This document shows, in pieces, positions 1-20,442 of a DNA stretch of 25,273 bases. This DNA is from an uncultured bacterium (lineage in GTDB: Bacteria > Auribacterota > Auribacteria > Auribacterales > Auribacteraceae). The notes beneath the pieces are model-generated. The model was given only the letters and a program-made list of their open reading frames with translations. It was not told the origin of the DNA and did not search any database. The translations under genes were made by a program, and so were the position numbers. The stretch spans positions 1 through 25,273 of the forward strand of contig CAYVGJ010000006.1 of assembly GCA_964451165.1 (NCBI GenBank), in the 5' to 3' direction. Positions within the stretch are counted from its first letter, which is position 1. Each line of letters opens with the position of its first letter.

Positions 1-9
1 AATTAAGAA

Positions 10-83
10 TACGCCTGGCAGGGCTCGAACCTGCGACCTTTAGATTCGAAGTCTATCGCTCTATCCAACTGAGCTACAGGCGC
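10..83 (-). tRNA. tRNA-Arg (anticodon UCG), no encoded CCA
   Basis: Minus-strand read: GCGCCTG-TA-GCTC-AGTTGGATA-GAGC-G-ATAGA-CTTCGAA-TCTAA-AGGTC-GCAGG-TTCGAGC-CCTGC-CAGGCGT-A. There is a 7-bp acceptor stem with a G1-U72 wobble, a D-arm with A20 (an Arg identity element), a 7-nt anticodon loop C-U-UCG-A-A, a T-arm GCAGG/CCTGC with a TTCGAGC loop, and discriminator A. Confidence 0.85.
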
Positions 84-105
84 ATTTTAATTCCAAATCA
101 GTTTA

Positions 106-1704
106 TCAGCATCCGAAAACATTCTTTATATCAGGATGTAAACCATCAGCATACTTGCCGATCGTTTCACGCCTGATTTTATTCAAAGCATTTTGCCGTT
201 CTTCAAATTCCTGATGTGAATATAGTTTTTCAGGATGCATATAGATTGAATCGACTTCCCTAACTGCCTTAGGTACCTGAAATCCGGTTATGCTGTCTAT
301 CCAGTGGCTTTCAAGACCGCCTCTGATTAGTGAATCCAAAATATTCATTGTATGACGTAATGAAATATCATGATAATGTTGTCCTTCACCAATTCCGCCG
401 GTATTTAGTAAATAACAGTTAATATGCGGTAACCCTCTTAAAATTTCATAAAACAAATTAGCATGATCGGTTCTGCTTCCCGCAATAAATGGATCGTAGA
501 AAAATTCGTTTCTGATTTTTCCGGCTTGAGTAGGGTCTCCGGCGGATGATTCCATCGATTGACCCAGCACCATCAAAGCCGCCGCTTGCGCGTGACTGAC
601 TTTAGAAATCGCAGGGATAATTTGTCCGCGGGTAATTAAAACAATATTGTCTACATGATCGACATCTATACAAGAACTGGCATGCATGAAATCGCGTCGT
701 AATATTACAGCACGTCCGTTAGAAGTTTTTTCAACATTAAAGAAATCGAAATCACCGTCAGGTTTAACAAAAATATTTTCACATAAAGTATCCGGTTTTA
801 ATAATCCATAGTATGTTTCCAACTGATCACCAGGATTCAAACTTTCTGTTTTTACAAAAATACCACCGGCTTCAAATCCATGAAAAGACCCTGACGGCAT
901 CAAAGTACCGCCATCATCCTGTACCAGCCAGGATTTTTCTTCGCCTTTTCTTGCCAATATTTTACATGTCGTGGATGTTTTTCCGTTCGCGCTTAACGCG
1001 ATTAAAAGGGTTCTTACTGTCTGATAATCTCCATCAACATTCTGTAGATAATCTTCACGGCATCCCGCATGAAGGAAGATTCCGCCTTTTCTGGTTTTCG
1101 CGTTCCAGTTTTCCGATGCGAAAACACCTTTTTTGAATTCACCTATATACATGCTGTTGCGAACAACTTTTACCACTCTTCCATCAGGAAGCATCGCTAA
1201 TCGGATAGTAATATCTTTTTGTGGAAGAGGTTTATTTCTGTTCTCCTCGAATTTTTCATCGACAAACATAATTATTTCATAATTCGGTTTATCGACTTTA
1301 ACTTTTGGCAGAGCAAAAATATTACCGCCACCATATGCTATATGAGCGAATCTTTCCGGCAATGTTAGTCTGGCGTAAACACCGCTGTCAGGATCTCCGA
1401 CGACTCTATCTATACTGATAAGTTTTTCTTTACCCAGAATTTGTTCGCATTTGTTCAATAAATCTATTTCTTCCTGTCCAAATTCATCGTCGACACTGTT
1501 TTTTGTGTGTTTGGCTGCTCTCGATGTCGGTTCGCTTTCAGCTACTAAGTTACCGTATTTTGTTTTTATTACCCCTTCTTCTTTCTCTGTCAATATTCTA
1601 ATCTGTTCAGGTGTATTGGATAAATCAATCCTATTTTCTTTTAAAGCTTTTTCACGAATATTCTGAGCAGTTTTTATAAATAAATTTAGATCGAAACCAG
1701 CCAT
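106..1704 (-). CDS. pckA: Phosphoenolpyruvate carboxykinase (ATP-type family)
   Basis: The ORF is 532 aa. There is a mid-protein P-loop ALSANGKTSTT...VQDDGGTLMP (compare PckA GLSGTGKTTLS...DDEHGW), and a C-terminal LLNTGGIGEG (compare PckA LVNTGWNGTG). The length is typical. An AAGGAG SD lies 10 nt upstream of the ATG. Confidence 0.8.
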   Translation of the reverse strand: MAGFDLNLFIKTAQNIREKALKENRIDLSNTPEQIRILTEKEEGVIKTKYGNLVAESEPTSRAAKHTKNSVDDEFGQEEIDLLNKCEQILGKEKLISIDRVVGDPDSGVYARLTLPERFAHIAYGGGNIFALPKVKVDKPNYEIIMFVDEKFEENRNKPLPQKDITIRLAMLPDGRVVKVVRNSMYIGEFKKGVFASENWNAKTRKGGIFLHAGCREDYLQNVDGDYQTVRTLLIALSANGKTSTTCKILARKGEEKSWLVQDDGGTLMPSGSFHGFEAGGIFVKTESLNPGDQLETYYGLLKPDTLCENIFVKPDGDFDFFNVEKTSNGRAVILRRDFMHASSCIDVDHVDNIVLITRGQIIPAISKVSHAQAAALMVLGQSMESSAGDPTQAGKIRNEFFYDPFIAGSRTDHANLFYEILRGLPHINCYLLNTGGIGEGQHYHDISLRHTMNILDSLIRGGLESHWIDSITGFQVPKAVREVDSIYMHPEKLYSHQEFEERQNALNKIRRETIGKYADGLHPDIKNVFGC

Positions 1705-1771
1705 TCTATAATTTCTCCTTGTCTCAGTTTGAAATTAGCGTCCGAAATAGATTTAATTGGAACCAGCCATC

Positions 1772-1800
1772 ATTTTATCAAGTTAAACATAAAACTTCAA
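1772..1800 (-). promoter_or_regulatory. Candidate sigma70-like promoter for pckA (TTGAAG-17nt-TAAAAT on the minus strand)
   Basis: The reverse complement of 1795-1800 is TTGAAG, and the reverse complement of 1772-1777 is TAAAAT, with a 17-nt spacer. This lies about 65 nt upstream of the pckA ATG (1704), which has an AAGGAG SD 10 nt upstream. The background is AT-rich, so a chance match is plausible. Confidence 0.25.
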
Positions 1801-1951
1801 GACCGATTTAAATATTAATATTAATTTAATTTTTTCAGGTTACAACAAAAATTAATCAAAAAATATTTTAGTTAAAAAAAAATAATGGGAATTGTGGTTT
1901 TATTAACCGGCTAATTGCAAAAATACTGATTAGTATAATATAATTCATATT

Positions 1952-2914
1952 TTATTTTTTAAATGAGTTTAAAATTGAGATTATTTTATCTGCAGGTGAT
2001 ATAATCCATTTCGGGAAAAAGCTTAATATAAAATAGCATATCATTTTATCGTATTTCTTTAGGTGAAATATATATCTTTGGCAAAATCTGCGTACCTTCA
2101 GATAATCTCCTGAATGATGAAAAGCTCTTATCTGTTCGGATATCAGTTTGGTATTGGTTGTTGTTTCTATATCAAACTTAAGAATTTCAGCAGGATCGAA
2201 AGATTCGTAACTATCTGTTCCACTGGAAATTCTTTCATGATAAAATTCCCTTGCTTTTTCTCTGAATAGAAATTGCTGTGCTCTTTTCTGAAACGATATA
2301 GCTGTTTTTTGTATTCTGTATTTAATAAGATATTCCGGAATCACTGATATTTTTTTTGTTTCAGTTATCAAACGTAAATATAAATCATAATCCTGGGCGA
2401 ATATGAATTTGTCTCTATACTGAATCCCCTGTCTATTTTTAAAAAAAATTGATGAATGGGTTAACTGGTTATTCTTAATGATAAGATTCTTCAACTCATC
2501 TTCAGTTGTAGATGGTAAGAACCGGGAAATCTCTTTTCCAATTTCATCTATATATATTACTCCACATCCCATAAGCGAACAGTCGTGAGATTCCATGAAA
2601 TCAAATTGTTTTTGCAGGCGTTTAGGGAGCGAAACATCGTTTGCGTCCTGGCGCGCGATATACTTGCCTTGAGCTAAAGACAACCCTTTATTTAATGAGC
2701 GGGTTAATCCGAGATTTGTTTGGTTGATTATGATACGTATCCGTCTGTCTGTGATACTGTTTATTATTTCGCTCGTTTTCTGGTTCGAACCGTCGTTTAT
2801 TATTATAAACTCAAGATTAGTTAAACTTTGTGAAAGAATACAATCAATCGATTCCTCAAGATACAGCTCATCGTTATAAACACACATTAAAACAGAAACC
2901 AGAGGCGTATTCAT
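1952..2914 (-). CDS. Glycosyltransferase family 2
   Basis: N-terminal VSVLMCVYNDELYLEESIDCILSQSLTNLEFIIINDGS (GT-A fold, DxD-type). There is a 4-nt gap to the upstream methyltransferase stop, so the two are translationally coupled. Confidence 0.8.
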   Translation of the reverse strand: MNTPLVSVLMCVYNDELYLEESIDCILSQSLTNLEFIIINDGSNQKTSEIINSITDRRIRIIINQTNLGLTRSLNKGLSLAQGKYIARQDANDVSLPKRLQKQFDFMESHDCSLMGCGVIYIDEIGKEISRFLPSTTEDELKNLIIKNNQLTHSSIFFKNRQGIQYRDKFIFAQDYDLYLRLITETKKISVIPEYLIKYRIQKTAISFQKRAQQFLFREKAREFYHERISSGTDSYESFDPAEILKFDIETTTNTKLISEQIRAFHHSGDYLKVRRFCQRYIFHLKKYDKMICYFILSFFPKWIISPADKIISILNSFKK

Positions 2915-2918
2915 AAGT

Positions 2919-3695
2919 TTATTGCCGGAAAGATAACAGCAGATATTTCAGCGATTCAATCAAATCCACTCTTCGTAAAAGATATTTTGACCACAATCTG
3001 TACGCTGTTATTTTTCCTTTTTCAAATCTATGCTTGTTTTCAACTAAAAAATGGTTAATCTTATCATCGAATTCTTTTAGCTGTGGTTGCGAATCACAAC
3101 AGGCAAACGCGAAATATGGGCAGACTTCGTTGTAAATCCGATATATTTTCACAAACTCAAAAGAATTTTTTAGGGATTCATAAAGTTTTAGTTCAGTATA
3201 CATATACAAATGGTATTTATTCCATTTAAGAAACACAGGAATTAACGAATCTCTTTCAACAAGCGGAGTTGTACCGAACAAAACCCCGTTTTTCTTTAAA
3301 TGTTGTTTCATACCATTTATGTATTTTAGCCCATCTTCACGTTTTAAGTGTTCTATGGAATCTAACGCCAGAGCTATATCATAATTTTTTTGTTCCAGCT
3401 CAATTTTTGTGGCATCCATAGTTAAAAATTTGCATTTTTCCGTATTATATTTCAATTGGGGCATTGGAGCAGCAAGATCAAACCCGGTAACACAATCCGC
3501 GATAGGAACAATATAGCTGACTGTTCCCCACCCTGTTCCACAACAGGTATCTAAAACCTTTTTACCTTCGCAGAATTTCCGGCTGAGCTGATATCTTTCT
3601 ATAAGCAGTTTTGTCCATGGATCTCTCTTCCATGTTTCAGATACCGGATCGAGTCGTCCCACATAATCCTTATTTGACATTGTATGTCCCTTCAA
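2919..3695 (-). CDS. Class I SAM-dependent methyltransferase
   Basis: SAM motif I VLDTCCGTGWGT followed by acidic motif II/III spacing (FDLA...MDAT...LDSIEH). Overlaps the radical SAM gene by 26 nt. Confidence 0.7.
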   Translation of the reverse strand: MKGHTMSNKDYVGRLDPVSETWKRDPWTKLLIERYQLSRKFCEGKKVLDTCCGTGWGTVSYIVPIADCVTGFDLAAPMPQLKYNTEKCKFLTMDATKIELEQKNYDIALALDSIEHLKREDGLKYINGMKQHLKKNGVLFGTTPLVERDSLIPVFLKWNKYHLYMYTELKLYESLKNSFEFVKIYRIYNEVCPYFAFACCDSQPQLKEFDDKINHFLVENKHRFEKGKITAYRLWSKYLLRRVDLIESLKYLLLSFRQ

Positions 3696-4785
3696 CGAGC
3701 GGCCTGTTTGTTATTAGTTTTGACAAATACCATTTCAGAACAAAGAAAGGCGAATTTGTTACGCTCGGATATATATCGGAATCCCCGCATAATCCATTCG
3801 GATACATACAATCACAATTTTTAATCTCTTTTAATATTTTTGGAGATATACTGTTCCATATATCACTGAAACATTTTTCCCTGATATTGCCAATAATTCT
3901 ATCATTACTTAACTTGAAATTACACGGGAATACATTTCCCTCCGGATCAATGTGAACAATCTGCTGACCGGCAAAACACGGCATTTTTCGTTTATTGATA
4001 ATATGATCGTATAGGCAAGCAAGAGTTATGTTTCTTGGCAGGAAAAATATGCTTGCGAGTTTTCCTAATATATTGTCAGGCAGTACCTTTTCTTCCCTGC
4101 AATATTTGTCGAGAACTTTATCCATTCCGGGTTCCCAGAAAACCAGATCTTTATCCGTTACATCAAACCGATCGTTCATAACGGTCCAGCAAATATAAGC
4201 TTTGGACCCTTTTTTGCGAGCAAATTCTCTAACCCATTCGAAATAGTTGACATTATCTTTACAGAAAGTGAAACTAAATTCACAGTGTACTAAATCTTTG
4301 AGCCTGTCATATGTTTCCAATGCTTTTTCATATGCTCCTTCAATTCCACGTGTTTTATCATGCACTTCTTTTGGACCATTCAAACTTATGCCTACAAGCC
4401 TGAATTGAATATCCGGATTATCTTTCAGGATTTTTTTAAATACCCTTTCTTCAACATCAGGGCTCATGCCATGAGTTGTAATTCCAAACGTTGCTTGGGG
4501 TATATTCTTATGGAGAGTTGAAATTAACTCTGGTAAATCAGGCCTTAATGTGGGTTCTCCACCGCTCAATGTAATATACTGAACATGTTTAAAATATGGA
4601 GATTTAGAGAATTTATCAATTTCTTGAATCGAGAGGTCATTCAAACCTGCGGTTTTGTCTTTCCAAATAGAACAAGTTATGCATCTTGAATTGCATTTCC
4701 ATGTAGTCGTGAATCGTAAACCGATAATTTTGTCTCTCATTCCAAACTGATGTTTCAACCAGTTACAATAACGTCTTCCTATCAT
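3670..4785 (-). CDS. Radical SAM enzyme with C-terminal SPASM/twitch-like Cys cluster
   Basis: CNSRCITC (CxxxCxxC) at residues 31-38; a GGEPTL glycine-rich SAM motif; C-terminal CFAGQQIVHIDPEGNVFPC...GNIREKCFSDIW...CDCMYPNGLCGD. AAGGAA SD 6 nt upstream of the ATG at 4785. Overlaps the flippase gene by 23 nt. Confidence 0.75.
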   Translation of the reverse strand: MIGRRYCNWLKHQFGMRDKIIGLRFTTTWKCNSRCITCSIWKDKTAGLNDLSIQEIDKFSKSPYFKHVQYITLSGGEPTLRPDLPELISTLHKNIPQATFGITTHGMSPDVEERVFKKILKDNPDIQFRLVGISLNGPKEVHDKTRGIEGAYEKALETYDRLKDLVHCEFSFTFCKDNVNYFEWVREFARKKGSKAYICWTVMNDRFDVTDKDLVFWEPGMDKVLDKYCREEKVLPDNILGKLASIFFLPRNITLACLYDHIINKRKMPCFAGQQIVHIDPEGNVFPCNFKLSNDRIIGNIREKCFSDIWNSISPKILKEIKNCDCMYPNGLCGDSDIYPSVTNSPFFVLKWYLSKLITNRPLVEGTYNVK

Positions 4786-6055
4786 TTTTTAATTCCTTAC
4801 TTCTAATGTTAAGTTTTTTGAAATATATGAAATTCGACAATGATATACAAATAGAATGAACTATCAATGTTGCCAGAAAAACACCAACAAAACCATAATA
4901 CTTTATTAAAACCAAATCCAGTATAATATTACTTAATCCTCCCAAAAAAGTCAAAACAGAAAGTATTTTAGCGTATCCTGACGGAGTGATAAATGCATTT
5001 GCCGTAAAACTCCCCCAAATTTTTAAAGGAAGAAGAAAAGATAATATTTTTAATATCTGTATGAATGATTCATCGTTATACTTTGAACCCCATTGGTTTA
5101 AGATTACAATAAAAAAAATGTAAATTAAAATTGCCGTAACAATCGATAACGGCAACCCGTATATTGCCGATAACCTGAACTTTTCGCGCAATTTATTGTA
5201 TTCCTTCATAGAACTCCATCTGGATGCGTCAGGCGCGATTGTCTGCCCTAATATTATTGAGGGCATTAATATGAAATTAAATATATTGTCAATAATTCCA
5301 TAATACCCGATCTCTACCATATAACCGAATTTTTCCATAATAAGGATGTCTATTCTGGTATACATGAAATAAGATACATTCGCGATACCTATGTACATAG
5401 CGTATTTCGCAATTTTTCTCATAACATCGGAATTGAATCCACGTGTAGATATCGGAGCGGAAAAAAGAAGCCCGATTAAATATATAAACTGAATTGCCGC
5501 AACAGATAATACAGCCCCGAATAGTTTATATTTCATTATCAGTATAAAAGATATACCGATAGCGAAACCGCACGCATATATATTTCTGAAAAAAAGGTCT
5601 TTGAATTTTTTCTTACCCCGATAAATTCCATCTAATAACGATATAAAAGGTGTGATATAAAGATTTGGAATAAGAACCAGAATATATTTGTAATAATTAT
5701 GGAATAATTTCGAGCCGAAAATTATTATAAATAGCGAGCTGATAGTTGCCAGTATAATAATTATTACTGAAGCCGACCCGAATACCTTTTTCTCATTATC
5801 GGATTGCAGAGCAGAATATTCAGCGGTATATTTTGAAGCGGACGCTGAGATTCCAAAATCACAAACTATTATAAAAAGCATCATTATCGACGATATATAT
5901 GTTATAATACCGTATTCAACTGAAGTCAAATAAGATAAGGAAATCAGAAGGATACTTATCGATAAAACACTTTTTAATAATGTTTGCGATGATCTCCAAA
6001 AAAAATTTTTAAACAAAATCTTATTTTTATTAAAAAAGTACAATAATTTTTTCAT
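4763..6055 (-). CDS. Polysaccharide biosynthesis protein / oligosaccharide flippase (MOP superfamily, Wzx-like)
   Basis: 430 aa, about 12 predicted TM helices, extremely AT-rich (about 25-32% GC in counted windows), and positioned inside the glycosyltransferase cluster. Confidence 0.65.
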   Translation of the reverse strand: MKKLLYFFNKNKILFKNFFWRSSQTLLKSVLSISILLISLSYLTSVEYGIITYISSIMMLFIIVCDFGISASASKYTAEYSALQSDNEKKVFGSASVIIIILATISSLFIIIFGSKLFHNYYKYILVLIPNLYITPFISLLDGIYRGKKKFKDLFFRNIYACGFAIGISFILIMKYKLFGAVLSVAAIQFIYLIGLLFSAPISTRGFNSDVMRKIAKYAMYIGIANVSYFMYTRIDILIMEKFGYMVEIGYYGIIDNIFNFILMPSIILGQTIAPDASRWSSMKEYNKLREKFRLSAIYGLPLSIVTAILIYIFFIVILNQWGSKYNDESFIQILKILSFLLPLKIWGSFTANAFITPSGYAKILSVLTFLGGLSNIILDLVLIKYYGFVGVFLATLIVHSICISLSNFIYFKKLNIRSKELKNDRKTLL

Positions 6056-6126
6056 TTAAATATTTTATGTTATTAATTATCATTTCAATATTATAAAACT
6101 ATAAAATTCATAAGTAGAGATAATTT

Positions 6127-7062
6127 ATGCCGAAATATAATCCGAAAGTAAGTGTTATAATACCTTCATATAACAGAGCTCACATAATTTTAAACTGTCT
6201 CGAAAGTGTTTGTTCCCAAACATACAGTAATTTAGAAATAATAATTGTCGATGACGGTTCAAAAGACAATACATCCGATGTCGTATCCCAATATAAAGAT
6301 TCAAGGATTATATATGTAAAACACGAAAAAAATCAAGGTCTTCCTTCTGCAAGAAATACGGGAATAAAAACGTCTTGTGGAGAAATATTAGCTTTTCAGG
6401 ATACCGATGATTTATGGATGCCGACCAAAATTGAGGAAACCGTTAATGTTTTTGGTGAATCAAGCTCTGATGTAGGCGTTGTTTACGCCGCATCAATAAG
6501 GTATCGAAACAACAAAAAAACTTATCTGCCGGCTTCTTATATAAAACCAAAAGAAGGAGACGTTTTTAAAAGGCTTTTGCTCGGTAATTTTATACCGGCT
6601 ATATCTGCTTGTGTCAGAAGAGAATGTTTTGATCAAGTAGGCATTTTTGATCCATCTCTTCCGAGTTTGGAAGACTGGGAAATGTGGATTCGACTTGCTA
6701 AAAAATACAAATTCAGATTTATCGAAGAACCTTTACAGACAATATATTATACAAAGGACAGTTTAACGGCTAATGTCAGTAATTTTCTTAATGCAGAAAA
6801 ACTTATTTTAAAGAAACATTATAGCGATTTCGCTAAAAATCCTCCGGTTCTTGCTAAACGTTATGCGCAAATTGGTATTTATAACATGTTGTCAGGAAAT
6901 AATAAACAATGCCGTGAATACTTTTATAAAGCTCATGCAGCATGCCAAAACAAATACATCTATAAAACACTTTATTGGTTGTCTGCTTTTCCTGGATTAG
7001 TTTTTATAAAAGCATGTTTTTTGTTCTATATGAATATAAAAAGAATATTAAACAAGTTGTAG
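6127..7062 (+). CDS. Glycosyltransferase family 2
   Basis: VSVIIPSYNRAHIILNCLESVCSQTYSNLEIIIVDDGSKDNT, followed by a DTDD motif (FQDTDDLW). Divergent from the flippase, with a 71-nt AT-rich spacer. Confidence 0.8.
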   Translation: MPKYNPKVSVIIPSYNRAHIILNCLESVCSQTYSNLEIIIVDDGSKDNTSDVVSQYKDSRIIYVKHEKNQGLPSARNTGIKTSCGEILAFQDTDDLWMPTKIEETVNVFGESSSDVGVVYAASIRYRNNKKTYLPASYIKPKEGDVFKRLLLGNFIPAISACVRRECFDQVGIFDPSLPSLEDWEMWIRLAKKYKFRFIEEPLQTIYYTKDSLTANVSNFLNAEKLILKKHYSDFAKNPPVLAKRYAQIGIYNMLSGNNKQCREYFYKAHAACQNKYIYKTLYWLSAFPGLVFIKACFLFYMNIKRILNKL

Positions 7063-7088
7063 ATAATTTAAAACATAAGGAGAAATAA

Positions 7089-7871
7089 ATGATATGCCCG
7101 CTATGCTCGAGATCCACCGAAAAGTTATTTTATAAAACCGATGATTTAATCTTGTATAAATGTTCATGCGGTTTTGTTTTTCACAACCAACAAACAGAAT
7201 ATAACGATCAATACAGTATTGAATTCGCCAAAACACGGAAATTTATGTATCCGGATAGAGCCGAATGTCTTAGAGATATAGTTCAGCGGATTCGCAAATA
7301 TAAACCCGCGGGAAACCTTCTTGATATAGGATGTGGAGACGGGCATTTTTTAAGTTATGCAAAAGATTATTATGATATTTCCGGAATAGAACCTTCATAT
7401 GATTTATCAGTTCACGCTTCGAAAATACTGAGTATTCCTGTTGTGCATGGTTATTATCCGGCTGACTTAAAAAATACTCAAAAAAGCGATATCATAACAA
7501 TGATCCAGGTTATGGAACATATCCCTAACCCTGTTAAGATATTGGAACATATCTACAATAACTTGAGTCAAGGCGGTTTAGTTGTTATAGAAATACCATC
7601 AATTTCCGCGCCGCATTTTTTATTATATCGCTTAACCGGTATAAAACGATTTGTGAATAATCCATATGGTATAATAAAAAATCATGTCGGATATTATTCA
7701 CCAAAAAGATTTTTATCTCTCATGAACTCCATTGGATTTAAAAAAATTGAATTAACAACCGGACGATGGCAAGTTAAATACAAAGGTACATTGAAATCAA
7801 TCGCAAAAATAATTGATCCGGTTTTCAATATGCTGAGAATAGGTGGAATTCTTTATATCGGAACCAAGTAA
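7089..7871 (+). CDS. Class I SAM-dependent methyltransferase with N-terminal C4 zinc ribbon
   Basis: CPLCSRS...YKCSCGFVF zinc ribbon, then LLDIGCGDGHFLSY (motif I) and VIEIPS (post II). AAGGAG SD 7 nt upstream of the ATG. Confidence 0.7.
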   Translation: MICPLCSRSTEKLFYKTDDLILYKCSCGFVFHNQQTEYNDQYSIEFAKTRKFMYPDRAECLRDIVQRIRKYKPAGNLLDIGCGDGHFLSYAKDYYDISGIEPSYDLSVHASKILSIPVVHGYYPADLKNTQKSDIITMIQVMEHIPNPVKILEHIYNNLSQGGLVVIEIPSISAPHFLLYRLTGIKRFVNNPYGIIKNHVGYYSPKRFLSLMNSIGFKKIELTTGRWQVKYKGTLKSIAKIIDPVFNMLRIGGILYIGTK

Positions 7872-7893
7872 TTATAATTAAGATAAGAAATTC

Positions 7894-8703
7894 TTATACA
7901 GATAGATACTTATGCGGAAGGTTATTTGAAATTATACTCAAAAGTTCCTCGTGTATGGTTGTATTTGATGAGATAAGAGTTCGCCCAAATAAATAATCGT
8001 TTCCACCGCCAAAATCAGTTACGGTTCCTCCGGCTTCTTTTAGAATTATGGCTCCCGCCGCGGCATCCCATGGTTGAAGCCCGTATTCGAAATAAGCGTC
8101 GAGCCTTCCGCAGGCAACGTAAGCAAGATCGACCGCCGCCGCTCCCGCTCTGCGTATATCATGGCAGTTGCGAAGCAACTTGTTGGCACAATCCATATAC
8201 CTGTCAAGAAGATCATAACTCCTGAACGGAAATCCGGTGGCAATCATTGCTTCTTTCAATTTCAAACAACCGGAAACTCTGATCCGATTGCCATTAAGGT
8301 AAGCGCCTTCTTCTTTTTGCGCGTAAAACAACTCATTAAGAGCAGGATTATATATAACTCCGCATAGATGATCATTTCCCAAACATAATCCGATTGAAAC
8401 ACAATATATCGGGAACCGGTGAATAAAATTGCTTGTTCCATCGATAGGATCAATAATCCAGTAAGGTTTATCCGGAGAAATTTTTGAGATACCGCCTTCT
8501 TCAGCAATTATACCGAAATCCGGAAAATCACCCTTCAGGATAGAAATTATTATTTTTTCCGATTCGGTGTCATAATTGGTAACTAAATCATTTAAATTCT
8601 TTTCTTCAATATCAATATTTCGTTGCGAATTCTGATATTCAAGCAACAAATTTCCGGCGGTTTTCGCCGCTTTTATAGCAGTATCAAGAGGTGAATTATT
8701 CAT
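7894..8703 (-). CDS. suhB: Inositol monophosphatase family protein (SuhB/IMPase)
   Basis: WIIDPIDGTSNFIHRFP (DPIDGT metal-binding motif), QPWDAAAGAIIL (WD-x-AAG motif), 269 aa. Confidence 0.8.
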   Translation of the reverse strand: MNNSPLDTAIKAAKTAGNLLLEYQNSQRNIDIEEKNLNDLVTNYDTESEKIIISILKGDFPDFGIIAEEGGISKISPDKPYWIIDPIDGTSNFIHRFPIYCVSIGLCLGNDHLCGVIYNPALNELFYAQKEEGAYLNGNRIRVSGCLKLKEAMIATGFPFRSYDLLDRYMDCANKLLRNCHDIRRAGAAAVDLAYVACGRLDAYFEYGLQPWDAAAGAIILKEAGGTVTDFGGGNDYLFGRTLISSNTTIHEELLSIISNNLPHKYLSV

Positions 8704-8718
8704 TTATTTCCGTAGGAT

Positions 8719-9318
8719 TTATTCGGGTTTTTCTTTAGTTGGTTCATCACTCGAAACTTGTTTACTGACGCTTCGCCTTGATGGTGTTTTCTTCTTTTCT
8801 TCGACTGCGGGTTTTATTTCATTTGATTGTTGCTTTTTTTCATCGGATTCTTGTTTTGGCTCTTCTGCTGGTTTTTCTTCCGTTACAGTTTCTTGAGCAA
8901 CATTCTCTTGAGGTTTTTGCTCTTCTTTTTGTTCTGTATTAACATCTTTTTTACCATGGACTATTATGAATGTTTTTTCCGGTTTAAATTCAAAAAGTTT
9001 TTTTAAACCTCGCACATATGATTGAATTTTTTCGCTCAGCTCAGAAATTAAGATTTCATAACTTTTTATTTTATTCAATTGTTCCTGTAGCGAAAAAAAT
9101 TTATTATTCTTCCACTGGTTATATGCTTCTTTACCAAGTTTTAAATATTCATACTTAATTTTTGATTCTTTTAATTTGATCATTATAAAACAACTGGCAA
9201 TCTCATAACACATAACTGCGATAGACGCTATCCATTTAGCAGAAACAGATAGAAAATCTATTGTTTTCTGGGAATAGATAATAAAATTCTTCTTTATTTT
9301 TTCTTTATCGGGTTTCAT
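8719..9318 (-). CDS. Hypothetical membrane-anchored coiled-coil protein with K/E/Q-rich disordered tail
   Basis: A single predicted TM (AKWIASIAVMCYEIASCFIMI), followed by a heptad-like coiled-coil region, then about 70 aa of low-complexity EEK/PQE-rich sequence. AAGGGGA SD 7 nt upstream. Confidence 0.5.
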   Translation of the reverse strand: MKPDKEKIKKNFIIYSQKTIDFLSVSAKWIASIAVMCYEIASCFIMIKLKESKIKYEYLKLGKEAYNQWKNNKFFSLQEQLNKIKSYEILISELSEKIQSYVRGLKKLFEFKPEKTFIIVHGKKDVNTEQKEEQKPQENVAQETVTEEKPAEEPKQESDEKKQQSNEIKPAVEEKKKTPSRRSVSKQVSSDEPTKEKPE

Positions 9319-9357
9319 AGCGAAATCCCCTTGATGATGTTGTTGGTAACATGATGA

Positions 9358-9498
9358 TTAATTGATTCCGGGCCCATCGAGGCAAATATTGACAAAAGAT
9401 TCTTGCAGTCTTCTTGCATGACGCTCAGTATTATAACAACCGCACAGAACAGAAGTCAACCATGAAATCAAAATTAATGCGACAATAAAACGTTTCAT
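9358..9498 (-). CDS. Putative small lipoprotein (46 aa), not in the supplied ORF track
   Basis: Manual translation: MKRFIVALILISWLTSVLCGCYNTERHARRLQESFVNICLDGPGIN. There is a signal peptide with a lipobox-like LCGC. AAGGGAG SD 9 nt upstream of the ATG (9496-9498). The stop lies 39 nt before the next gene's start. Confidence 0.35.
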   Translation of the reverse strand: MKRFIVALILISWLTSVLCGCYNTERHARRLQESFVNICLDGPGIN

Positions 9499-9570
9499 AA
9501 CTAATAACTCCCTTGTTTTTGTATAGATTCCATAGTTATTTTCGGAAAAAAATTATTTTTGTTTAGATTA

Positions 9571-10044
9571 TTAGTTGCGTTTCTCTATATCAAGTAAGAA
9601 ACGTTTCCAGGATAATCCAGGACCAAAACCGCCTAAATGGCCATTCTTATTTACCACTCTGTGACATGGAATTAAAATAGGTATATTATTATAATGACAG
9701 GCTGATCCAACAGCTCGATAACATTTGACGTTTAATTTTTGCGCCAGTTCAAAATAAGATAATGTTTTTCCATATGGTATTTCCTTAAGAGCTGACCAGA
9801 CTTTTTGCCGGAAAATAGATGCGTTTTCTGTATAAAGATTGTATTTGACTGTCCAATTGATGATTTGTCCTGAAAAATAATTGTTAAGATCTTCCTTTAA
9901 TTCATCGATTATCGGAATTGAACGAGATACAGAACATTTCTCATCCCAGAAACCGGGGAATATGATTTTACATATCATATTATCATATAGTGAAATGCCG
10001 AAAATACCCTTTATGGTTTCACACGGATAAAGTTCATCAATCAT
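9571..10044 (-). CDS. ogt: Methylated-DNA--protein-cysteine methyltransferase (O6-alkylguanine-DNA alkyltransferase)
   Basis: Active-site IPCHRVV (PCHR motif) with the preceding HTH-like YGKTLSYFELAQKL; 157 aa. Confidence 0.85.
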   Translation of the reverse strand: MIDELYPCETIKGIFGISLYDNMICKIIFPGFWDEKCSVSRSIPIIDELKEDLNNYFSGQIINWTVKYNLYTENASIFRQKVWSALKEIPYGKTLSYFELAQKLNVKCYRAVGSACHYNNIPILIPCHRVVNKNGHLGGFGPGLSWKRFLLDIEKRN

Positions 10045-10045
10045 T

Positions 10046-11788
10046 TCACAAAATCCGATGTAAATAAGGTATTAATCCAGCTATGATAAAATGCATATCG
10101 ACAATATCCGAAAAGTTTAAATTCAAGGAATATTGCAATAGATCGTTTTTTAAAGATGATATATAAGTACTCCATAAAGGAATCAGCAACATAAGCCAGA
10201 CCGGAGATTTCCAAATAACAGTTGAATTAATAACAATCAAAAAACTTGTGAATATAACAAGAATTTTTAATATCTTCAGAACTTTATCTTTACCCATATA
10301 TATAGGAAGTGTTTCAACTCCAACCATCATGTCTTCCTGAATTTCCCTTATATCATTTCCAATTGATCTTATTGCGGCAAGAGTTGCAACAAAAAATATT
10401 GCTGTTAAATTTGTAGTATAAAAAAAATTAACACCTGAAGAAATAAGAGGAACAAATACCAATACCGTTACCCATCCAAGAACCACAAAAAGATCTTTAG
10501 ATCCGGGAATTCGGCTAATTTTTTTAATAGAAATATTTCTATTTTTAAAATATGGCAAGCCAATACTCTGGTAAAAAAAACCGAAAAAAAGTAAAAGTAT
10601 AGATAAAATAAAGGGAATTATTCCAAGTTTAAAACTTACAATCAAAACAGTTATGATAGATATTGTTATTATTGAAACAATAGATTTTTTACGCCGGTCG
10701 TAAAATTTAATTTTTTCCGGTTCGTTTAGTTTCAAAAACCATTTTTTCTTTAATCCTTTAAAACTATAAACAGCAAGTATATAAAAAAAGGAAAGCACAA
10801 AGTATTCTTTCCTTGAATATAAGTTCTGCATTGAGCAAGCGCTATAACTCAGCCAACCTGCTGCAAAAGCAACAAGGAGATTAGTGTTGCGTATAAAATT
10901 CCATGTTTTACTGAACAATTTTAGTATTACAGGGAGGTTTTCTTGCTGACCGCATTTTATCTTGTATACAATCTGTTTTATCATCCAGTTTGGTGTTGAA
11001 GCTCCTGCGGTAACCCCGATTCTTTGATATTTATTGAAGTCGATCTGTTTTAGATCGGATTCTTCTTCTATATGAATAGCTTTTGTTCCGGTTTCGCCGG
11101 ATATTTTTGCTAAGCGTGTGGTATTAGCGCTGTTTTTGCCTCCAATAATTATCATTAGATCAACCGTTTTTGCTATATTGTAGACCTCATTCTGGCGGGC
11201 TATAGTCGATGGGCAGATCGTATCGAAGACAACACAATTTTCTTTTCCGTATTTTTTGATTATTGCATCACATACATCATTAAAAATTTCTTTCTGTTGT
11301 GTTGTCTGGGCAACAATACAGATTTTTTTTAAATCAGGCAGTTTTTTTACATCATCAATATTATTTATAACAAATCCATTATTTTCAGCGAATCCGAGCA
11401 GTCCTTTTACTTCAGCGTGCCCTTCATCACCAACGATAATTGTAGAGTAACCTTTTAATGCGTGTTTTTTTACAATTCCTTGTACTTTTCCGACATCAGG
11501 GCAGGTCGCGTCGCAAATATTGGCGTTTATGGATTTTAATTGGGTTCTTGTTTTGGGAGGTATACCATGAGCACGGATAACCACATTTTTATTTTTCGCC
11601 AGCATCGGATCGTCAATCGGTTTTATTCCCAAATTACTTAATTGTTCAAGAACCTGCGGATTATGAATTATCGGTCCCAAAGTTACAGTTTCCCGATCTG
11701 ATTTTTTAGCAACCGCAAGAACTTTTTCTACAGCTTTGCGCACGCCTTTGCAGAATCCAGCTGTTTTCGCTACTTTTAACGTACTCAT
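10046..11788 (-). CDS. ispH: 4-hydroxy-3-methylbut-2-enyl diphosphate reductase (IspH/LytB) fused to a C-terminal ~300-aa polytopic membrane domain
   Basis: Residues 1-275 carry all the IspH hallmarks: GFCKGV, HNPQV, RAHG, DATCPDVGKV, GDEGHAEVKG, QTTQ, ICPSTIARQ, GGKNSANTTRLA, GVTAGASTP. Residues ~300-580 have about 9 predicted TM helices and an Asp/Glu-rich motif NDIREIQEDMMVGVETLPIYMG that resembles the first motif of UbiA-type prenyltransferases. The ORF is continuous, so this is not a frameshift artefact within the window. Confidence 0.8.
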   Translation of the reverse strand: MSTLKVAKTAGFCKGVRKAVEKVLAVAKKSDRETVTLGPIIHNPQVLEQLSNLGIKPIDDPMLAKNKNVVIRAHGIPPKTRTQLKSINANICDATCPDVGKVQGIVKKHALKGYSTIIVGDEGHAEVKGLLGFAENNGFVINNIDDVKKLPDLKKICIVAQTTQQKEIFNDVCDAIIKKYGKENCVVFDTICPSTIARQNEVYNIAKTVDLMIIIGGKNSANTTRLAKISGETGTKAIHIEEESDLKQIDFNKYQRIGVTAGASTPNWMIKQIVYKIKCGQQENLPVILKLFSKTWNFIRNTNLLVAFAAGWLSYSACSMQNLYSRKEYFVLSFFYILAVYSFKGLKKKWFLKLNEPEKIKFYDRRKKSIVSIITISIITVLIVSFKLGIIPFILSILLLFFGFFYQSIGLPYFKNRNISIKKISRIPGSKDLFVVLGWVTVLVFVPLISSGVNFFYTTNLTAIFFVATLAAIRSIGNDIREIQEDMMVGVETLPIYMGKDKVLKILKILVIFTSFLIVINSTVIWKSPVWLMLLIPLWSTYISSLKNDLLQYSLNLNFSDIVDMHFIIAGLIPYLHRIL

Positions 11789-14139: not shown

Positions 14140-14181
14140 TTATTGAATAAAAACTTTTGAAGAAATAAATGATATGAAATT

Positions 14182-14967: not shown

Positions 14968-14986
14968 TTTTTTGCCTTTATAAAAA

Positions 14987-15014
14987 ATTTAGGCATAGAA
15001 AAATACTCCTAAAT
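14987..15014 (-). terminator. Weak hairpin + T-run (possible intrinsic terminator/attenuator between nif3 and the secreted hypothetical)
   Basis: ATTTAGG (14987-14993) and CCTAAAT (15008-15014) form a 7-bp inverted repeat with a 14-nt loop. On the minus strand the hairpin is followed by TTTTTTA. The stem is AT-only and the loop is long, so the structure is weak. Confidence 0.2.
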
Positions 15015-15072
15015 ATCTTTTAATAATTTAGACATATAATATTACTAAATGTTTCATATATGTAATATAAAA

Positions 15073-15828: not shown

Positions 15829-15832
15829 ATAT

Positions 15833-17907: not shown

Positions 17908-17930
17908 AATTGCCTTTCAGAAAAAAATTT

Positions 17931-18572: not shown

Positions 18573-18635
18573 TAATTGCTCCTTTCTTTATATGAATTTT
18601 ATATATATTATATTGCTTGTAAACTAAATATTGTA

Positions 18636-20438: not shown

Positions 20439-20442
20439 AATA

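What the first reader, a model, noticed from the sequence alone, without database searches (positions are those of the whole stretch)
3670..4785. Radical SAM/SPASM enzyme translationally overlapped with a methyltransferase and a Wzx-like flippase inside a glycan cluster
The rSAM ORF overlaps the upstream flippase by 23 nt and the downstream SAM-methyltransferase by 26 nt, so it is an integral member of this operon rather than a neighbour. SPASM/twitch radical SAM enzymes are best known as peptide maturases or protein-cofactor maturases (AnSME, PqqE, sactipeptide and ranthipeptide synthases). Finding one in an operon with GT2 transferases, two methyltransferases and a flippase points to one of two possibilities. 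It may perform an unusual radical modification of a sugar or lipid-linked glycan, such as C-methylation, epimerisation or deoxygenation. Alternatively the cluster may decorate a peptide or protein substrate, as in a glycosylated RiPP or S-layer-type modification. I saw no convincing short Cys-rich precursor ORF nearby by eye, but ORFs under 60 aa are not in the supplied track.
Basis: partly seen in the sequence, partly recalled or inferred. Interest (0 to 1): 0.65.

Follow-up and report, generated by a model that had tools for sequence, protein, structure and literature searches.

The report
Sugar-tailoring radical SAM enzyme cassette
This gene encodes an uncharacterised iron-sulfur "radical SAM" enzyme that is almost always found next to a methyltransferase and a glycosyltransferase in cell-surface polysaccharide gene clusters of anaerobes, so it most likely modifies a sugar rather than a peptide.

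Summary
ORF 3670..4785 (-) encodes a 371-aa radical SAM protein with a C-terminal SPASM-type domain. It overlaps the upstream Wzx-like gene by 23 nt. It overlaps the downstream methyltransferase by 11 nt from the likelier ATG start, or 26 nt from the TTG.

It reaches the cut-off of no curated family: heme, Moco, PQQ, mycofactocin, sulfatase or sacti/ranthipeptide maturase.

Only four C-terminal cysteines are invariant (C270, C288, C326, C333), plus C199. That fits one auxiliary cluster (twitch-like), not the seven-Cys SPASM motif.

In 16 of 17 informative homologous loci, from five bacterial lineages and two Asgard archaeal MAGs, a class I SAM methyltransferase is adjacent. A GT2 lies within three genes in all 14 loci with enough flank. 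Either a Wzx flippase or Wzm/Wzt transporter genes accompany them.

More distant relatives are fused to GT2, GT4 or methyltransferase domains.

There is no precursor-peptide ORF, recognition domain or PqqD partner.

Best reading: a three-gene cassette that tailors a sugar of a surface glycan. The chemistry is unresolved. I found no characterised member. I rate it a new variant of the known sugar-modifying radical SAM enzymes, of moderate interest.

The parts
3670..4785 (-). Radical SAM enzyme, 371 aa. It has a CX3CX2C motif (C31/C35/C38), a GGE motif (S74-G75-G76-E77-P78), an invariant C199 at the end of predicted strand beta-6, and a truncated SPASM (twitch-like) domain with invariant C270, C288, C326 and C333.
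   Evidence: Pfam Radical_SAM plus SPASM (profile positions 1-46 of 67 only). Family alignment and Cys census. AF2 model with pLDDT 90. The C-terminal profile matches the BtrN twitch domain best.
2919..3680 (-). Class I SAM-dependent methyltransferase (MTa), the near-constant partner of the radical SAM enzyme. It is 253 aa from ATG 3680; a TTG at 3695 would add 5 codons.
   Evidence: Pfam Methyltransf_23/25/11. Public gene calls start at the ATG. 35 homologues, at least 11 of them on contigs that also carry a radical SAM homologue. A methyltransferase is adjacent to the radical SAM gene in 16 of 17 informative loci. AF2 model with pLDDT 92 and a generic class I fold.
1952..2914 (-). GT2 glycosyltransferase (GT2a), third member of the conserved radical SAM - methyltransferase - GT2 cassette.
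   Evidence: Pfam Glycos_transf_2, 100.6 bits. GT2a-like genes (35-45% identity) lie just downstream of the radical SAM/methyltransferase pair in L001-L005, L009 and L010. GT2 genes occupy the same position in L017-L019, L023 and L024.
4763..6055 (-). Wzx-like polysaccharide flippase (Polysacc_synt/MATE-like), first gene of the minus-strand operon.
   Evidence: Pfam PF01943, 52.8 bits. Its orthologue (43% identity) occupies the same position in L001. Wzx-type genes are also present in L007, L012, L017 and L018.
4763..4785 (-). 23-nt overlap between the end of the Wzx gene and the radical SAM start (ATG 4785 with an AAGGA Shine-Dalgarno-like site upstream).
   Evidence: Read directly from the sequence.
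3670..3680 (-). 11-nt overlap between the end of the radical SAM gene and the methyltransferase ATG start (26 nt if TTG 3695 is used).
   Evidence: Read directly from the sequence. Tight radical SAM/methyltransferase junctions recur in homologous loci: an 11-nt overlap in L001, 4 nt in L002, L004 and L006, 1 nt in L010, 8 nt in L018 and 14 nt in L024.
6056..6126 (.). 71-bp divergent intergenic region between the two transcription units. I infer that it holds the promoters.
   Evidence: Gene layout. Promoter-like matches occur on both strands but no more often than in shuffled sequence.
6127..7062 (+). Second GT2 glycosyltransferase (GT2b), transcribed divergently.
   Evidence: Pfam Glycos_transf_2, 130 bits. 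Its orthologue (42% identity) is also divergent from the Wzx gene in L001.
7089..7871 (+). Second class I SAM methyltransferase (MTb), with an N-terminal CxxC...CxC zinc-ribbon-like motif. It is only distantly related to MTa.
   Evidence: Pfam Methyltransf_23, 81 bits. BLASTP against MTa gives 22% identity, E = 0.013.

Best explanation
The gene encodes a cytoplasmic radical SAM enzyme of an unnamed family. It works as one part of a three-gene cassette: radical SAM enzyme, class I SAM methyltransferase, and GT2 glycosyltransferase. The cassette tailors one sugar residue of a cell-surface glycan before export.

Here the export route is a Wzx flippase. In many relatives it is a Wzm/Wzt ABC transporter.

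**Proposed mechanism (inferred from radical SAM precedent; none of it tested here).**
1. The C31/C35/C38 [4Fe-4S] cluster reductively cleaves SAM.
2. The 5'-deoxyadenosyl radical abstracts a hydrogen atom from a carbon of a hexose. That hexose is either an NDP-sugar used by GT2a or, as I think more likely, the residue GT2a has just placed on the undecaprenyl-diphosphate-linked glycan.
3. The substrate radical is resolved in one of two ways:
   - electron transfer to a single auxiliary cluster held by C270/C288/C326/C333, giving oxidation or dehydration to a keto- or deoxy-sugar, as in BtrN, BlsE and DesII;
   - hydrogen return from the invariant C199, giving epimerisation, as in NeoN- and HygY-type enzymes.
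4. The partner methyltransferase methylates the same residue.

**Role in Wzm/Wzt-type loci.** There the radical SAM/methyltransferase pair sits directly after wzt, where E. coli O9a has the chain terminator wbdD. In those loci it may build the non-reducing-end cap.

**What is shown:** domain content, conserved cysteines, conserved gene neighbourhood and domain fusions.

**What is inferred:** the substrate class, the number of clusters and all of the chemistry.
For: **1. Domains and motifs.**

**2. Conserved neighbourhood.** I examined 18 distinct family loci: the window, L001-L012, L017-L019, L023 and L024. L025 has the same sequence as L002.
- A class I methyltransferase is adjacent in 16 of 17 informative loci.
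- A GT2 lies within three genes in all 14 loci with enough flank.
- The loci carry Wzx-type genes (window, L001, L004-L007, L012, L017, L018) or Wzm/Wzt genes directly upstream of the radical SAM gene (L002, L008, L009, L010, L019, L023, L024). The Wzt of L008 and L024 carries a Wzt_C domain.
- Sources.

**3. Taxonomic spread.** The loci come from Omnitrophota, Aminicenantes, Marinimicrobia, Pirellulales, Eubacteriales, Hodarchaeota and Promethearchaeota MAGs. The linkage is therefore not simply inherited synteny.

**4. Domain fusions.**
- Methyltransferase-radical SAM fusion in L010.
- GT2-radical SAM fusion in P0107, next to a Wzy_C gene.
- GT2-GT2-GT4-radical SAM x2, GT4-radical SAM x2, GT4-radical SAM, radical SAM-GT2-GT4 and radical SAM-methyltransferase fusions among profile hits at E of 1e-37 or better.

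**5. Remote homologues.** Relatives at 25-31% identity also sit among GT, NAD-epimerase/dehydratase, PMT_2 and LPG_synthase_TM genes.

**6. Co-distribution of the partner.** The partner methyltransferase family is small, and many members sit on the same contigs as radical SAM homologues.

**7. Structure.**
- The C-terminal profile matches the twitch domain of the aminocyclitol dehydrogenase BtrN best (E = 1.6e-5).

**8. Precedent.** Radical SAM enzymes are known to remodel a lipid-linked hexose after glycosyl transfer: Cds and HpnJ (PMC13459092).

**9. Positional analogue.** WbdD is the chain-terminating kinase/methyltransferase of the ABC-transporter pathway (PMC3482155). Its gene position, right after wzt, is from my own knowledge of the E. 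coli O9a cluster.
Against: - No member of the family, or of the wider clade, has been characterised as far as I could find. The assignment rests on guilt by association.
- By full-length sequence the best solved relative is the peptide maturase CteB (5.9e-14).
- No nucleotide-sugar biosynthesis gene is consistently linked, so the substrate sugar is unknown.
- One family locus (L017) lacks the methyltransferase.
- The window cluster has no initiating phosphoglycosyltransferase and no Wzy gene. The glycan it belongs to is therefore undefined.
- C199 could be a cluster ligand rather than a hydrogen-atom donor.
Confidence: 0.7

Rival explanations
1. It is a RiPP or peptide maturase of the sactipeptide, ranthipeptide, PqqE or MftC type. 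On this reading the glycosyltransferases and methyltransferases decorate the modified peptide, as in mycofactocin or the glycocins.
For: - Most characterised SPASM enzymes are peptide maturases.
- The best sequence match in the PDB is CteB (5.9e-14).
- Weak NCBIfam hits: mycofactocin maturase 68 bits, PapB 61 bits.
- The mycofactocin cluster also combines a radical SAM/SPASM enzyme, a GT2 (MftF) and a methyltransferase (MftM) (PMC9679996, listed).
- GT2b hits MftF weakly, at 84 bits.
Against: - All of these scores are far below the curated cut-offs: 265 for MftC, 340 for PapB and 280 for MftF.
- There is no N-terminal recognition domain, because the CX3CX2C motif starts at residue 31.
- No PqqD/MftB-like gene, peptidase or bacteriocin exporter appears in any locus.
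- No free small ORF lies in the operon, and no small ORF is conserved across the 19 searched loci.
- The neighbours are Wzx, Wzm/Wzt and Wzy genes, which are polysaccharide export and polymerisation genes.
Confidence: 0.05
2. It is a housekeeping cofactor enzyme (NirJ/AhbC/AhbD-type heme pathway enzyme, MoaA, or an anaerobic sulfatase maturase) that merely sits in a glycan cluster.
For: The top NCBIfam hits are NirJ1 (85 bits), AhbC (78) and NirJ (75). MoaA hits cover the N-terminal part only. anSME and MoaA are among the structural neighbours.
Against: - The cut-offs for these families are 231-650 bits, so none is approached.
- No heme d1, Ahb, Moco or sulfatase genes lie nearby.
- The family is rare and patchy: 12 loci in 185,579 species genomes. 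That does not fit a housekeeping role.
- Linkage to a methyltransferase and a GT2 is conserved across phyla.
Confidence: 0.02
3. It belongs to the glycan pathway but does not act on a sugar ring. It could act on a non-carbohydrate substituent or on the carrier. Examples are further chemistry on the methyl group added by the partner methyltransferase, on an acyl or amino-acid appendage, or on the polyprenyl lipid.
For: - The near-obligate pairing and the fusions with a methyltransferase suggest that the two enzymes share one small reactive group.
- Lipid-modifying SPASM enzymes exist (GDGT-MAS/Tes is among the PDB hits; PMC13459092).
- The predicted N- and C-terminal helices could associate with the membrane (this is inference).
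Against: - The family also occurs without the methyltransferase, directly coupled to a GT2, in L017.
- The fusions to GT2 and GT4 domains point to the sugar itself.
- No acyl-, amino-acid- or lipid-handling gene is conserved nearby.
Confidence: 0.15
4. It is an activating or maturing enzyme for a protein of the cluster. It would modify the glycosyltransferase, the methyltransferase or the transporter post-translationally, as anSME does for sulfatases.
For: anSME-like architecture and fold. Fusion to the presumed target enzymes would also be compatible with this reading.
Against: No conserved target motif is known in GT2 enzymes or class I methyltransferases. The partner GT2, GT4 and methyltransferase types vary between loci while the radical SAM domain stays the same, which argues for a small-molecule substrate. 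No precedent is known to me.
Confidence: 0.05

Closest known systems
BlsE (cytosylglucuronate decarboxylase/dehydratase, blasticidin S pathway; PDB 7VOB)
BtrN (2-deoxy-scyllo-inosamine dehydrogenase, butirosin pathway; PDB 4M7T), the founding twitch enzyme
   Same: It is the best PDB match of the family's C-terminal profile (E = 1.6e-5). C270 and C288 align to the first two auxiliary-cluster cysteines of BtrN. The spacing to the last conserved Cys (45 residues) matches my recollection of the BtrN numbering. Both appear to have one auxiliary cluster and a carbohydrate-like substrate.
Canonical SPASM maturases (anSME, CteB, SuiB, PqqE, MftC)
   Same: There is a Pfam SPASM hit above the gathering score. 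The CX17C beta-hairpin with GX4C and the S-x-N/D-G-P-x-E-x-H-D-x-x-R motif after beta-4 are shared. They rank high in sequence and fold searches.
   Different: Only 4 of the 7 SPASM cysteines are conserved. The Pfam match stops at profile position 46 of 67. There is no peptide substrate gene, recognition domain or PqqD partner. All curated family cut-offs are missed by a wide margin.
WbdD, the chain-terminating kinase/methyltransferase of the E. coli O9a ABC-transporter-dependent O-antigen pathway
   Same: This is a positional and possibly functional analogue. In seven family loci the radical SAM/methyltransferase pair follows wzm-wzt directly and precedes the glycosyltransferases. That is where wbdD lies, according to my knowledge of the O9a cluster. 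WbdD function is described in PMC3482155. Two of the Wzt proteins carry a Wzt_C cap-binding domain.
   Different: There is no homology to the kinase or coiled-coil parts of WbdD. A radical SAM enzyme takes the place of the kinase. The window's own cluster uses Wzx, where no cap is needed.
Cds (calditol synthase) and HpnJ, radical SAM enzymes that remodel a lipid-linked hexose after glycosyl transfer
   Same: The logic is the same: a glycosyltransferase adds a hexose to a lipid, then a radical SAM enzyme rearranges the sugar (PMC13459092).
   Different: I could not test homology to Cds because I had no sequence. From my own knowledge HpnJ is a B12-binding-domain radical SAM enzyme, not a SPASM/twitch enzyme. 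Their carriers are GDGT and hopanoid lipids, not polysaccharide pathway intermediates.
Mycofactocin system (MftC radical SAM/SPASM, MftF GT2, MftM methyltransferase)
   Same: It has the same three enzyme classes in one cluster (PMC9679996).
   Different: No MftA, MftB, MftD or MftE equivalents are present. TIGR03962 scores 68 bits against a cut-off of 265. TIGR03965 scores 84 against 280.

Membership tests
Radical SAM superfamily (PF04055) | CX3CX2C motif for the SAM-binding [4Fe-4S] cluster, and a Pfam score above the gathering threshold | tested here: met
   C31-X3-C35-X2-C38 is conserved in 32 of 34 sequences; the other two are N-terminally truncated. PF04055 scores 63 bits against a cut-off of 29.5. 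The GGE motif S74-G75-G76-E77-P78 is invariant.
SPASM domain (PF13186 / seven-Cys motif, two auxiliary clusters) | HMM match above the gathering threshold | tested here: met
   PF13186 scores 38.3 bits against 21.5, but covers only profile positions 1-46 of 67.
SPASM domain (PF13186 / seven-Cys motif, two auxiliary clusters) | Seven conserved cysteines: CX9-15GX4C, gap, CX2CX5CX3C, gap, C | tested here: not met
   Only C270, C288, C326 and C333 are invariant in 34 of 34 sequences. C305 of the window protein is found in 1 of 34 and C324 in 3 of 34. The pattern is C-X17-C-X37-C-X6-C.
Twitch-type (single auxiliary cluster) radical SAM enzymes | A truncated SPASM domain: a beta-hairpin with the Cys pair, plus enough further Cys for one cluster | tested here: met
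   Four invariant Cys. The hairpin is predicted at E276-279/E284-286. The C-terminal profile matches the BtrN twitch domain best (1.6e-5).
Twitch-type (single auxiliary cluster) radical SAM enzymes | Actual stoichiometry of two [4Fe-4S] clusters per protein | not testable with these tools
   This needs Fe/S quantification and EPR or Moessbauer spectroscopy on reconstituted protein.
RiPP maturases (sacti/ranthipeptide synthases, PqqE, MftC) | A precursor peptide gene, and a RiPP recognition element (N-terminal domain or PqqD-like partner) | tested here: not met
   No free small ORF lies in the operon, and none is conserved across the 19 searched loci. The radical SAM motif starts at residue 31. 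No PqqD Pfam hit appears in any annotated locus.
RiPP maturases (sacti/ranthipeptide synthases, PqqE, MftC) | NCBIfam equivalog score cut-off | tested here: not met
   MftC scores 68 bits against 265, PapB 61 against 340, AlbA 37 against 850, and PqqE 35 against 381.
Heme d1 / alternative heme enzymes (NirJ, AhbC, AhbD) and MoaA | NCBIfam equivalog score cut-off and pathway context | tested here: not met
   NirJ1 scores 85 bits against 650, AhbC 78 against 650, NirJ 75 against 515, AhbD 62 against 500, and MoaA 45 against 231. No pathway genes lie nearby.
Anaerobic sulfatase-maturating enzymes | Full SPASM domain and a sulfatase target gene | tested here: not met
   The PDB sequence match to anSME is only 1.5e-8. 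Three SPASM cysteines are missing. No sulfatase gene is found in any locus.
Carbohydrate-modifying radical SAM enzymes (BtrN, BlsE, DesII, AprD4, SpeY, NeoN, HygY) | Closest structural and sequence relatives are sugar-acting enzymes | tested here: inconclusive
Carbohydrate-modifying radical SAM enzymes (BtrN, BlsE, DesII, AprD4, SpeY, NeoN, HygY) | Demonstrated hydrogen abstraction from a sugar substrate | not testable with these tools
   This requires in vitro assays. Only genomic context and domain fusions support a sugar substrate.
Wzx-dependent polysaccharide gene cluster | Flippase, glycosyltransferases, an initiating phosphoglycosyltransferase and a Wzy polymerase | tested here: inconclusive
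   A Wzx-like gene and two GT2 genes are present. No PGT or Wzy gene lies in the annotated part of the window, 1..22598 and 24884..25243. The cluster may build a short unit on a precursor made elsewhere.

The most novel reading that the evidence does not exclude
The radical SAM/methyltransferase pair performs sugar chemistry not yet described for surface polysaccharides. Examples would be radical epimerisation, oxidation or ring rearrangement of a lipid-linked hexose, trapped by methylation. In the Wzm/Wzt-type loci the pair would act as a radical-SAM-based chain terminator: it would make the non-reducing-end cap read by the Wzt carbohydrate-binding domain, as an anaerobe's counterpart of WbdD. 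The wider clade, fused to GT2, GT4 and methyltransferase domains in proteins of up to about 2,000 residues, would then be a large unrecognised class of glycan-tailoring radical enzymes.
Probability: 0.2. Interest if true: 0.75.

Novelty: new variant of a known kind. Interest (0 to 1): 0.45.

Why it matters
Radical SAM enzymes that act on sugars are known almost entirely from antibiotic pathways (BtrN, DesII, AprD4, BlsE, NeoN, HygY).

This finding points to a distinct, unnamed clade. At E of 1e-30 or better it has 524 representative clusters (50% identity) among 1.84 billion representative proteins. Every member I examined was wired into cell-surface polysaccharide assembly, through conserved operons and through fusions to glycosyltransferases and methyltransferases. 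It occurs in uncultivated anaerobic bacteria and in Asgard archaea.

If the assignment holds, it would:
- predict unusual sugars in the envelopes of Omnitrophota, Aminicenantes, Marinimicrobia and related lineages;
- provide a compact three-gene cassette that can be tested heterologously;
- possibly reveal a new way to terminate and cap ABC-transporter-dependent O-polysaccharides.

It would also warn annotators against reading every SPASM-domain hit as a peptide maturase.

Tried and rejected
- **Curated families.** NCBIfam names neither the window protein nor ten members of the wider clade. None reaches a cut-off.
- **Promoters and terminators.** The scans are at chance level and do not define the operon ends.
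- **Literature.** Seven searches found no characterised homologue. A C. jejuni HS:19 capsule locus with an adjacent methyltransferase and radical SAM gene is only annotated, not studied.
- **Calditol synthase.** The paper (PMC6305003) is not held, so I could not compare Cds with this family.
- **Small ORFs.** The search found nothing conserved. The only cross-locus matches came from L002 and L025, which are the same sequence.
- **Source organism.** The exact cluster-member lookup returned no names, so the organism is not identified. The closest relatives of several cluster proteins are from Omnitrophota MAGs.
- **Mycofactocin-like glycosylated RiPP.** I considered this and rejected it for lack of MftA/B/D/E equivalents and because the scores are sub-threshold.
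Full report
**1. What is in the sequence**

The window carries a compact six-gene glycan cluster.
- Minus strand: a Wzx-like gene (4763..6055), the radical SAM gene (3670..4785), a class I SAM methyltransferase MTa (2919..3680/3695) and a GT2 glycosyltransferase GT2a (1952..2914).
- Plus strand, divergently transcribed across a 71-bp gap: a second GT2 (GT2b, 6127..7062) and a second methyltransferase (MTb, 7089..7871).
- Flanking genes are housekeeping: PEPCK (106..1704) and an inositol-monophosphatase-family gene (7894..8703).
- The cluster has 31-36% G+C, against 39-40% in the two flanking 1-kb windows.

I read both junctions directly.
- The Wzx gene ends with TAA at 4765-4763. The radical SAM ATG is at 4785, behind an AAGGA site. 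That is a 23-nt overlap.
- The radical SAM gene ends with TAA at 3672-3670. More plausibly it starts at ATG 3680 behind GAAGGG (11 nt). Public gene calls on three contigs carrying this exact protein use that start.

**2. What kind of radical SAM protein it is**

Domain level. Pfam finds Radical_SAM (63 bits) and SPASM (38.3 bits). Both are above the gathering scores, but the SPASM match covers only profile positions 1-46 of 67.

Curated families. NCBIfam lists 61 weak hits and none near a curated cut-off. The best is NirJ1 at 85 bits against 650. MftC scores 68 against 265, PapB 61 against 340 and MoaA 45 against 231. Assignment to a named peptide-maturase family does not occur either.

Conserved cysteines. 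I aligned 34 homologues of 40-75% identity.
- The CX3CX2C motif (C31/C35/C38) is present in every sequence that is not N-terminally truncated.
- The GGE motif is invariant.
- Five further cysteines are invariant: C199, C270, C288, C326 and C333.
- The window protein's C305 and C324 are idiosyncratic, present in 1 and 3 of the 34 sequences.
- The family pattern is C-X17-C-X37-C-X6-C. That is the hairpin Cys pair with GX4C plus two more cysteines, not the seven-Cys SPASM signature.

Auxiliary domain.
- A profile of the C-terminal region finds the twitch domain of BtrN first in the PDB (E = 1.6e-5). C270 and C288 align with BtrN's first two auxiliary-cluster cysteines. CteB and anSME follow.
- In the wider clade the usual pattern is C-X17-C-X35-C-X1-2-C-X3-C, which is five cysteines.
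- I conclude that the enzyme most likely binds one auxiliary cluster. That makes it twitch-like, a truncated SPASM. This is an inference from cysteine counts, not a measurement.

Structure.
- The AlphaFold model is confident (pLDDT 90, pTM 0.90). It shows six beta-alpha units followed by the hairpin domain.
- The invariant C199 sits at the C-terminal end of the sixth predicted strand (E196-198). In radical SAM barrels that is where active-site residues lie.
- The fold class is clear. The substrate class cannot be read from it.

**3. How common it is and where it lives**

- About 100 database clusters share at least 40% identity. There is then a sharp drop to about 31%.
- Among one genome per species for 185,579 species, only 12 loci encode a family member. 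They come from Omnitrophota, Aminicenantes, Marinimicrobia, Pirellulales, Eubacteriales and an unclassified bacterium, and from two Asgard archaea (Hodarchaeota, Promethearchaeota).
- A profile search of 1.84 billion representative proteins found only four full-length 50%-identity clusters above 400 bits. A broad clade follows: 524 representatives at E of 1e-30 or better.
- The narrow family is therefore rare, patchy and spread across domains. That is typical of genes that move with variable surface-glycan cassettes.

**4. Neighbourhood**

I examined 18 distinct family loci: the window, L001-L012, L017-L019, L023 and L024. L025 turned out to be the same sequence as L002.

*Methyltransferase.*
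- A class I SAM methyltransferase is adjacent to the radical SAM gene in 16 of the 17 loci where this can be judged.
- It is usually directly downstream, with junctions ranging from a 14-nt overlap to a 3-nt gap.
- It is divergent or on the other side in L007, L011 and L012, and absent in L017.
- In L010 a methyltransferase domain is fused to the N-terminus of the radical SAM protein, and a second methyltransferase gene follows.

*Glycosyltransferase.* A GT2 lies within three genes in all 14 loci with enough flanking sequence. Where I could compare it by BLAST (L001-L005, L009, L010), the one just downstream is GT2a-like, at 35-45% identity to the window's GT2a.

*Export genes.*
- Wzx-type genes accompany the cassette in the window, L001, L004-L007, L012, L017 and L018.
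- Wzm/Wzt ABC-transporter genes lie directly upstream of the radical SAM gene in L002, L008, L009, L010, L019, L023 and L024. The Wzt proteins of L008 and L024 carry a Wzt_C domain.
- Sources for these counts.

*Synteny.* L001, from an Omnitrophota MAG, is syntenic with the whole window cluster, including the divergent GT2b.

*Partner family.* The MTa family has only 35 members in the large database. At least 11 of them sit on contigs whose lengths match contigs carrying radical SAM homologues.

**5. Fusions in the wider clade**

- P0107 (31% identity) is a GT2-radical SAM fusion next to a Wzy_C polymerase gene and GT4 genes.
- Among the top profile hits:
  - P0152 is GT2-GT2-GT4 followed by two radical SAM/SPASM modules (1,941 aa).
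  - P0163 and P0164 are GT4 plus two radical SAM modules.
  - P0276 is GT4-radical SAM.
  - P0202 is radical SAM-GT2-GT4.
  - P0144 and P0180 are radical SAM-methyltransferase.
  - P0174, P0187 and P0203 are tandem radical SAM modules.
- Unfused remote homologues (P0100, P0111, P0113) lie among GT4 and GT2 genes, NAD-dependent sugar epimerase/dehydratases, a B12-radical SAM gene, PMT_2 and LPG_synthase_TM genes.
- A recent preprint on Omnitrophota giant proteins independently lists radical SAM domains in a 'sugar metabolism' domain module with GT group 1. It assigns them no function (10.64898/2026.06.07.730766).

These fusions are the strongest single argument that the substrate belongs to glycan assembly.

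**6. The peptide alternative**

- Within 1700..8000, every ORF of 20-100 aa lies inside a longer gene, except three in the 247-bp gap below GT2a. All three lack cysteine.
- Across the 19 searched loci, no small ORF outside large genes is similar between loci. The only matches were the duplicate pair L002/L025.
- The radical SAM motif begins at residue 31, so there is no N-terminal recognition domain.
- No PqqD-like, peptidase or bacteriocin-exporter gene appears in any annotated locus.
- The parallel with mycofactocin (MftC + MftF GT2 + MftM methyltransferase; PMC9679996) is one of enzyme classes only. The scores are sub-threshold and MftA, MftB, MftD and MftE are absent.
- I rate a peptide substrate at about 5%.

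**7. How it most likely works**

*Shown here:*
- a radical SAM core;
- a probable single auxiliary cluster;
- an extra invariant cysteine near the active site;
- tight, conserved coupling to a methyltransferase and a GT2;
- placement in clusters whose products are exported by Wzx or Wzm/Wzt.

*Inferred:*
- The enzyme is cytoplasmic. I saw no signal-peptide-like or transmembrane stretch in the sequence.
- It acts before export, on a sugar that GT2a transfers. The substrate would be either the NDP-sugar donor or, more likely, the residue once attached to the lipid-linked glycan.
- Mechanism by precedent:
  1. The 5'-deoxyadenosyl radical abstracts a ring C-H.
  2. The substrate radical is then oxidised through the auxiliary cluster, giving a keto- or deoxy-sugar as in BtrN, DesII and BlsE.
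  3. Alternatively it is quenched from the opposite face by C199, giving epimerisation as in NeoN- and HygY-type enzymes.
  4. The methyltransferase then modifies the same residue.
- I cannot choose between these chemistries with the tools available. My rough split is one third epimerisation, one third oxidation or dehydration, and one third something else, such as ring rearrangement or chemistry on the methyl group.

*Possible cap-making role.*
- In the seven Wzm/Wzt loci the pair occupies the slot right after wzt. In E. coli O9a that slot holds wbdD, the kinase/methyltransferase that caps and terminates the chain.
- WbdD function is described in PMC3482155. The gene order is from my own knowledge.
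- A cap-making role is therefore an attractive hypothesis for those loci, though untested. It does not obviously apply to the Wzx-type window cluster.
- The window cluster also lacks an initiating phosphoglycosyltransferase and a Wzy gene. It probably extends or decorates a precursor made elsewhere.

**8. Comparison with what is known, and novelty**

- The enzyme works like the carbohydrate-modifying twitch radical SAM enzymes, but it is not a member of any of their families. Identity is 20% or less, and there is no curated family.
- It differs from them in four ways:
  - its setting in surface polysaccharide assembly rather than antibiotic pathways;
  - its near-obligate methyltransferase partner;
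  - its frequent fusion to glycosyltransferases;
  - its cysteine pattern.
- Radical SAM enzymes that remodel lipid-linked hexoses (Cds, HpnJ; PMC13459092) show that the logic has precedent.
- I found no paper that characterises this family or clade.
- I classify it as a new variant of a known kind.
- Interest is moderate at 0.45. A specialist would see a promising, cleanly delimited target for new sugar chemistry. The present evidence is entirely contextual, though, and radical SAM genes in polysaccharide loci of anaerobes are not surprising in themselves.

Noticed in passing
window 10046..11788 (-): A 580-aa protein fuses a complete IspH/LytB domain (290 bits) to a C-terminal multi-pass membrane region. 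That region weakly resembles UbiA prenyltransferases (32.4 bits, just under the 34.2 cut-off). This would join the last enzyme of isoprenoid precursor synthesis to a prenyltransferase-like domain, which is unusual.
   Followed up: no
window 18636..21429 (-): A second, separate glycosylation pair. A GT2 with C-terminal membrane helices (20443..21429) resembles a polyprenyl-phosphate sugar synthase. It is followed by a 600-aa PMT_2 (GT-C) membrane protein with C-terminal TPR repeats (18636..20438). The GT2 gene overlaps the end of a PUA-domain SAM methyltransferase gene (21426..22598).
   Followed up: partly
proteins P0121 and P0123 (an 8.7-kb contig of a related strain; equivalent to window 3670..4785): In a strain about 90% identical, the radical SAM gene is called as two pieces (202 aa and 169 aa). 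A frameshift falls just before the invariant AYICWTV motif that contains C199. This is either a pseudogene or on/off variant, or an assembly error. An intact 374-aa version (P0122) also exists.
   Followed up: partly
proteins P0152, P0163, P0164, P0190, P0195, P0200, P0242 (profile hits): Giant proteins of 1,000-2,160 aa carry one to three radical SAM/SPASM modules. I scanned three of them, and in those the modules are fused to GT2 and GT4 domains. They may be assembly-line-like glycan synthases that include radical tailoring steps.
   Followed up: partly
L023:10831-12900: The same polysaccharide locus holds a second, unrelated radical SAM/SPASM gene four genes downstream of the family member. 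An ICMT/PEMT-like membrane methyltransferase follows it. Some clusters therefore use more than one radical SAM step.
   Followed up: partly
L011 and L012 (Hodarchaeota and Promethearchaeota MAGs): Family members of 41-44% identity occur in two Asgard archaeal MAGs, each next to a divergent class I methyltransferase. In L012 the pair lies with a Wzx-like gene that is 36% identical to the window's. This suggests transfer of the cassette between domains.
   Followed up: partly
window 7089..7200 (+): The second methyltransferase (MTb) begins with a CxxC...CxC zinc-ribbon-like motif (MICPLCSRS...YKCSCGF). MTa has no such motif. The two methyltransferases are only 22% identical.
   Followed up: no
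window 1001..8000; L013:15562-16269: The glycan cluster has lower G+C (0.31-0.36) than the flanking 1-kb windows that cover most of the PEPCK gene and the IMPase-family gene (0.39-0.40). On the source contig, an rve-family integrase gene lies about 900 bp beyond the PEPCK gene, just outside the window. Both facts are consistent with a variable, horizontally acquired surface-glycan island.
   Followed up: no
window 8719..9318 (-): A 199-aa protein with an N-terminal hydrophobic segment and a long Lys/Glu/Pro-rich tail. It has no Pfam match.
   Followed up: no
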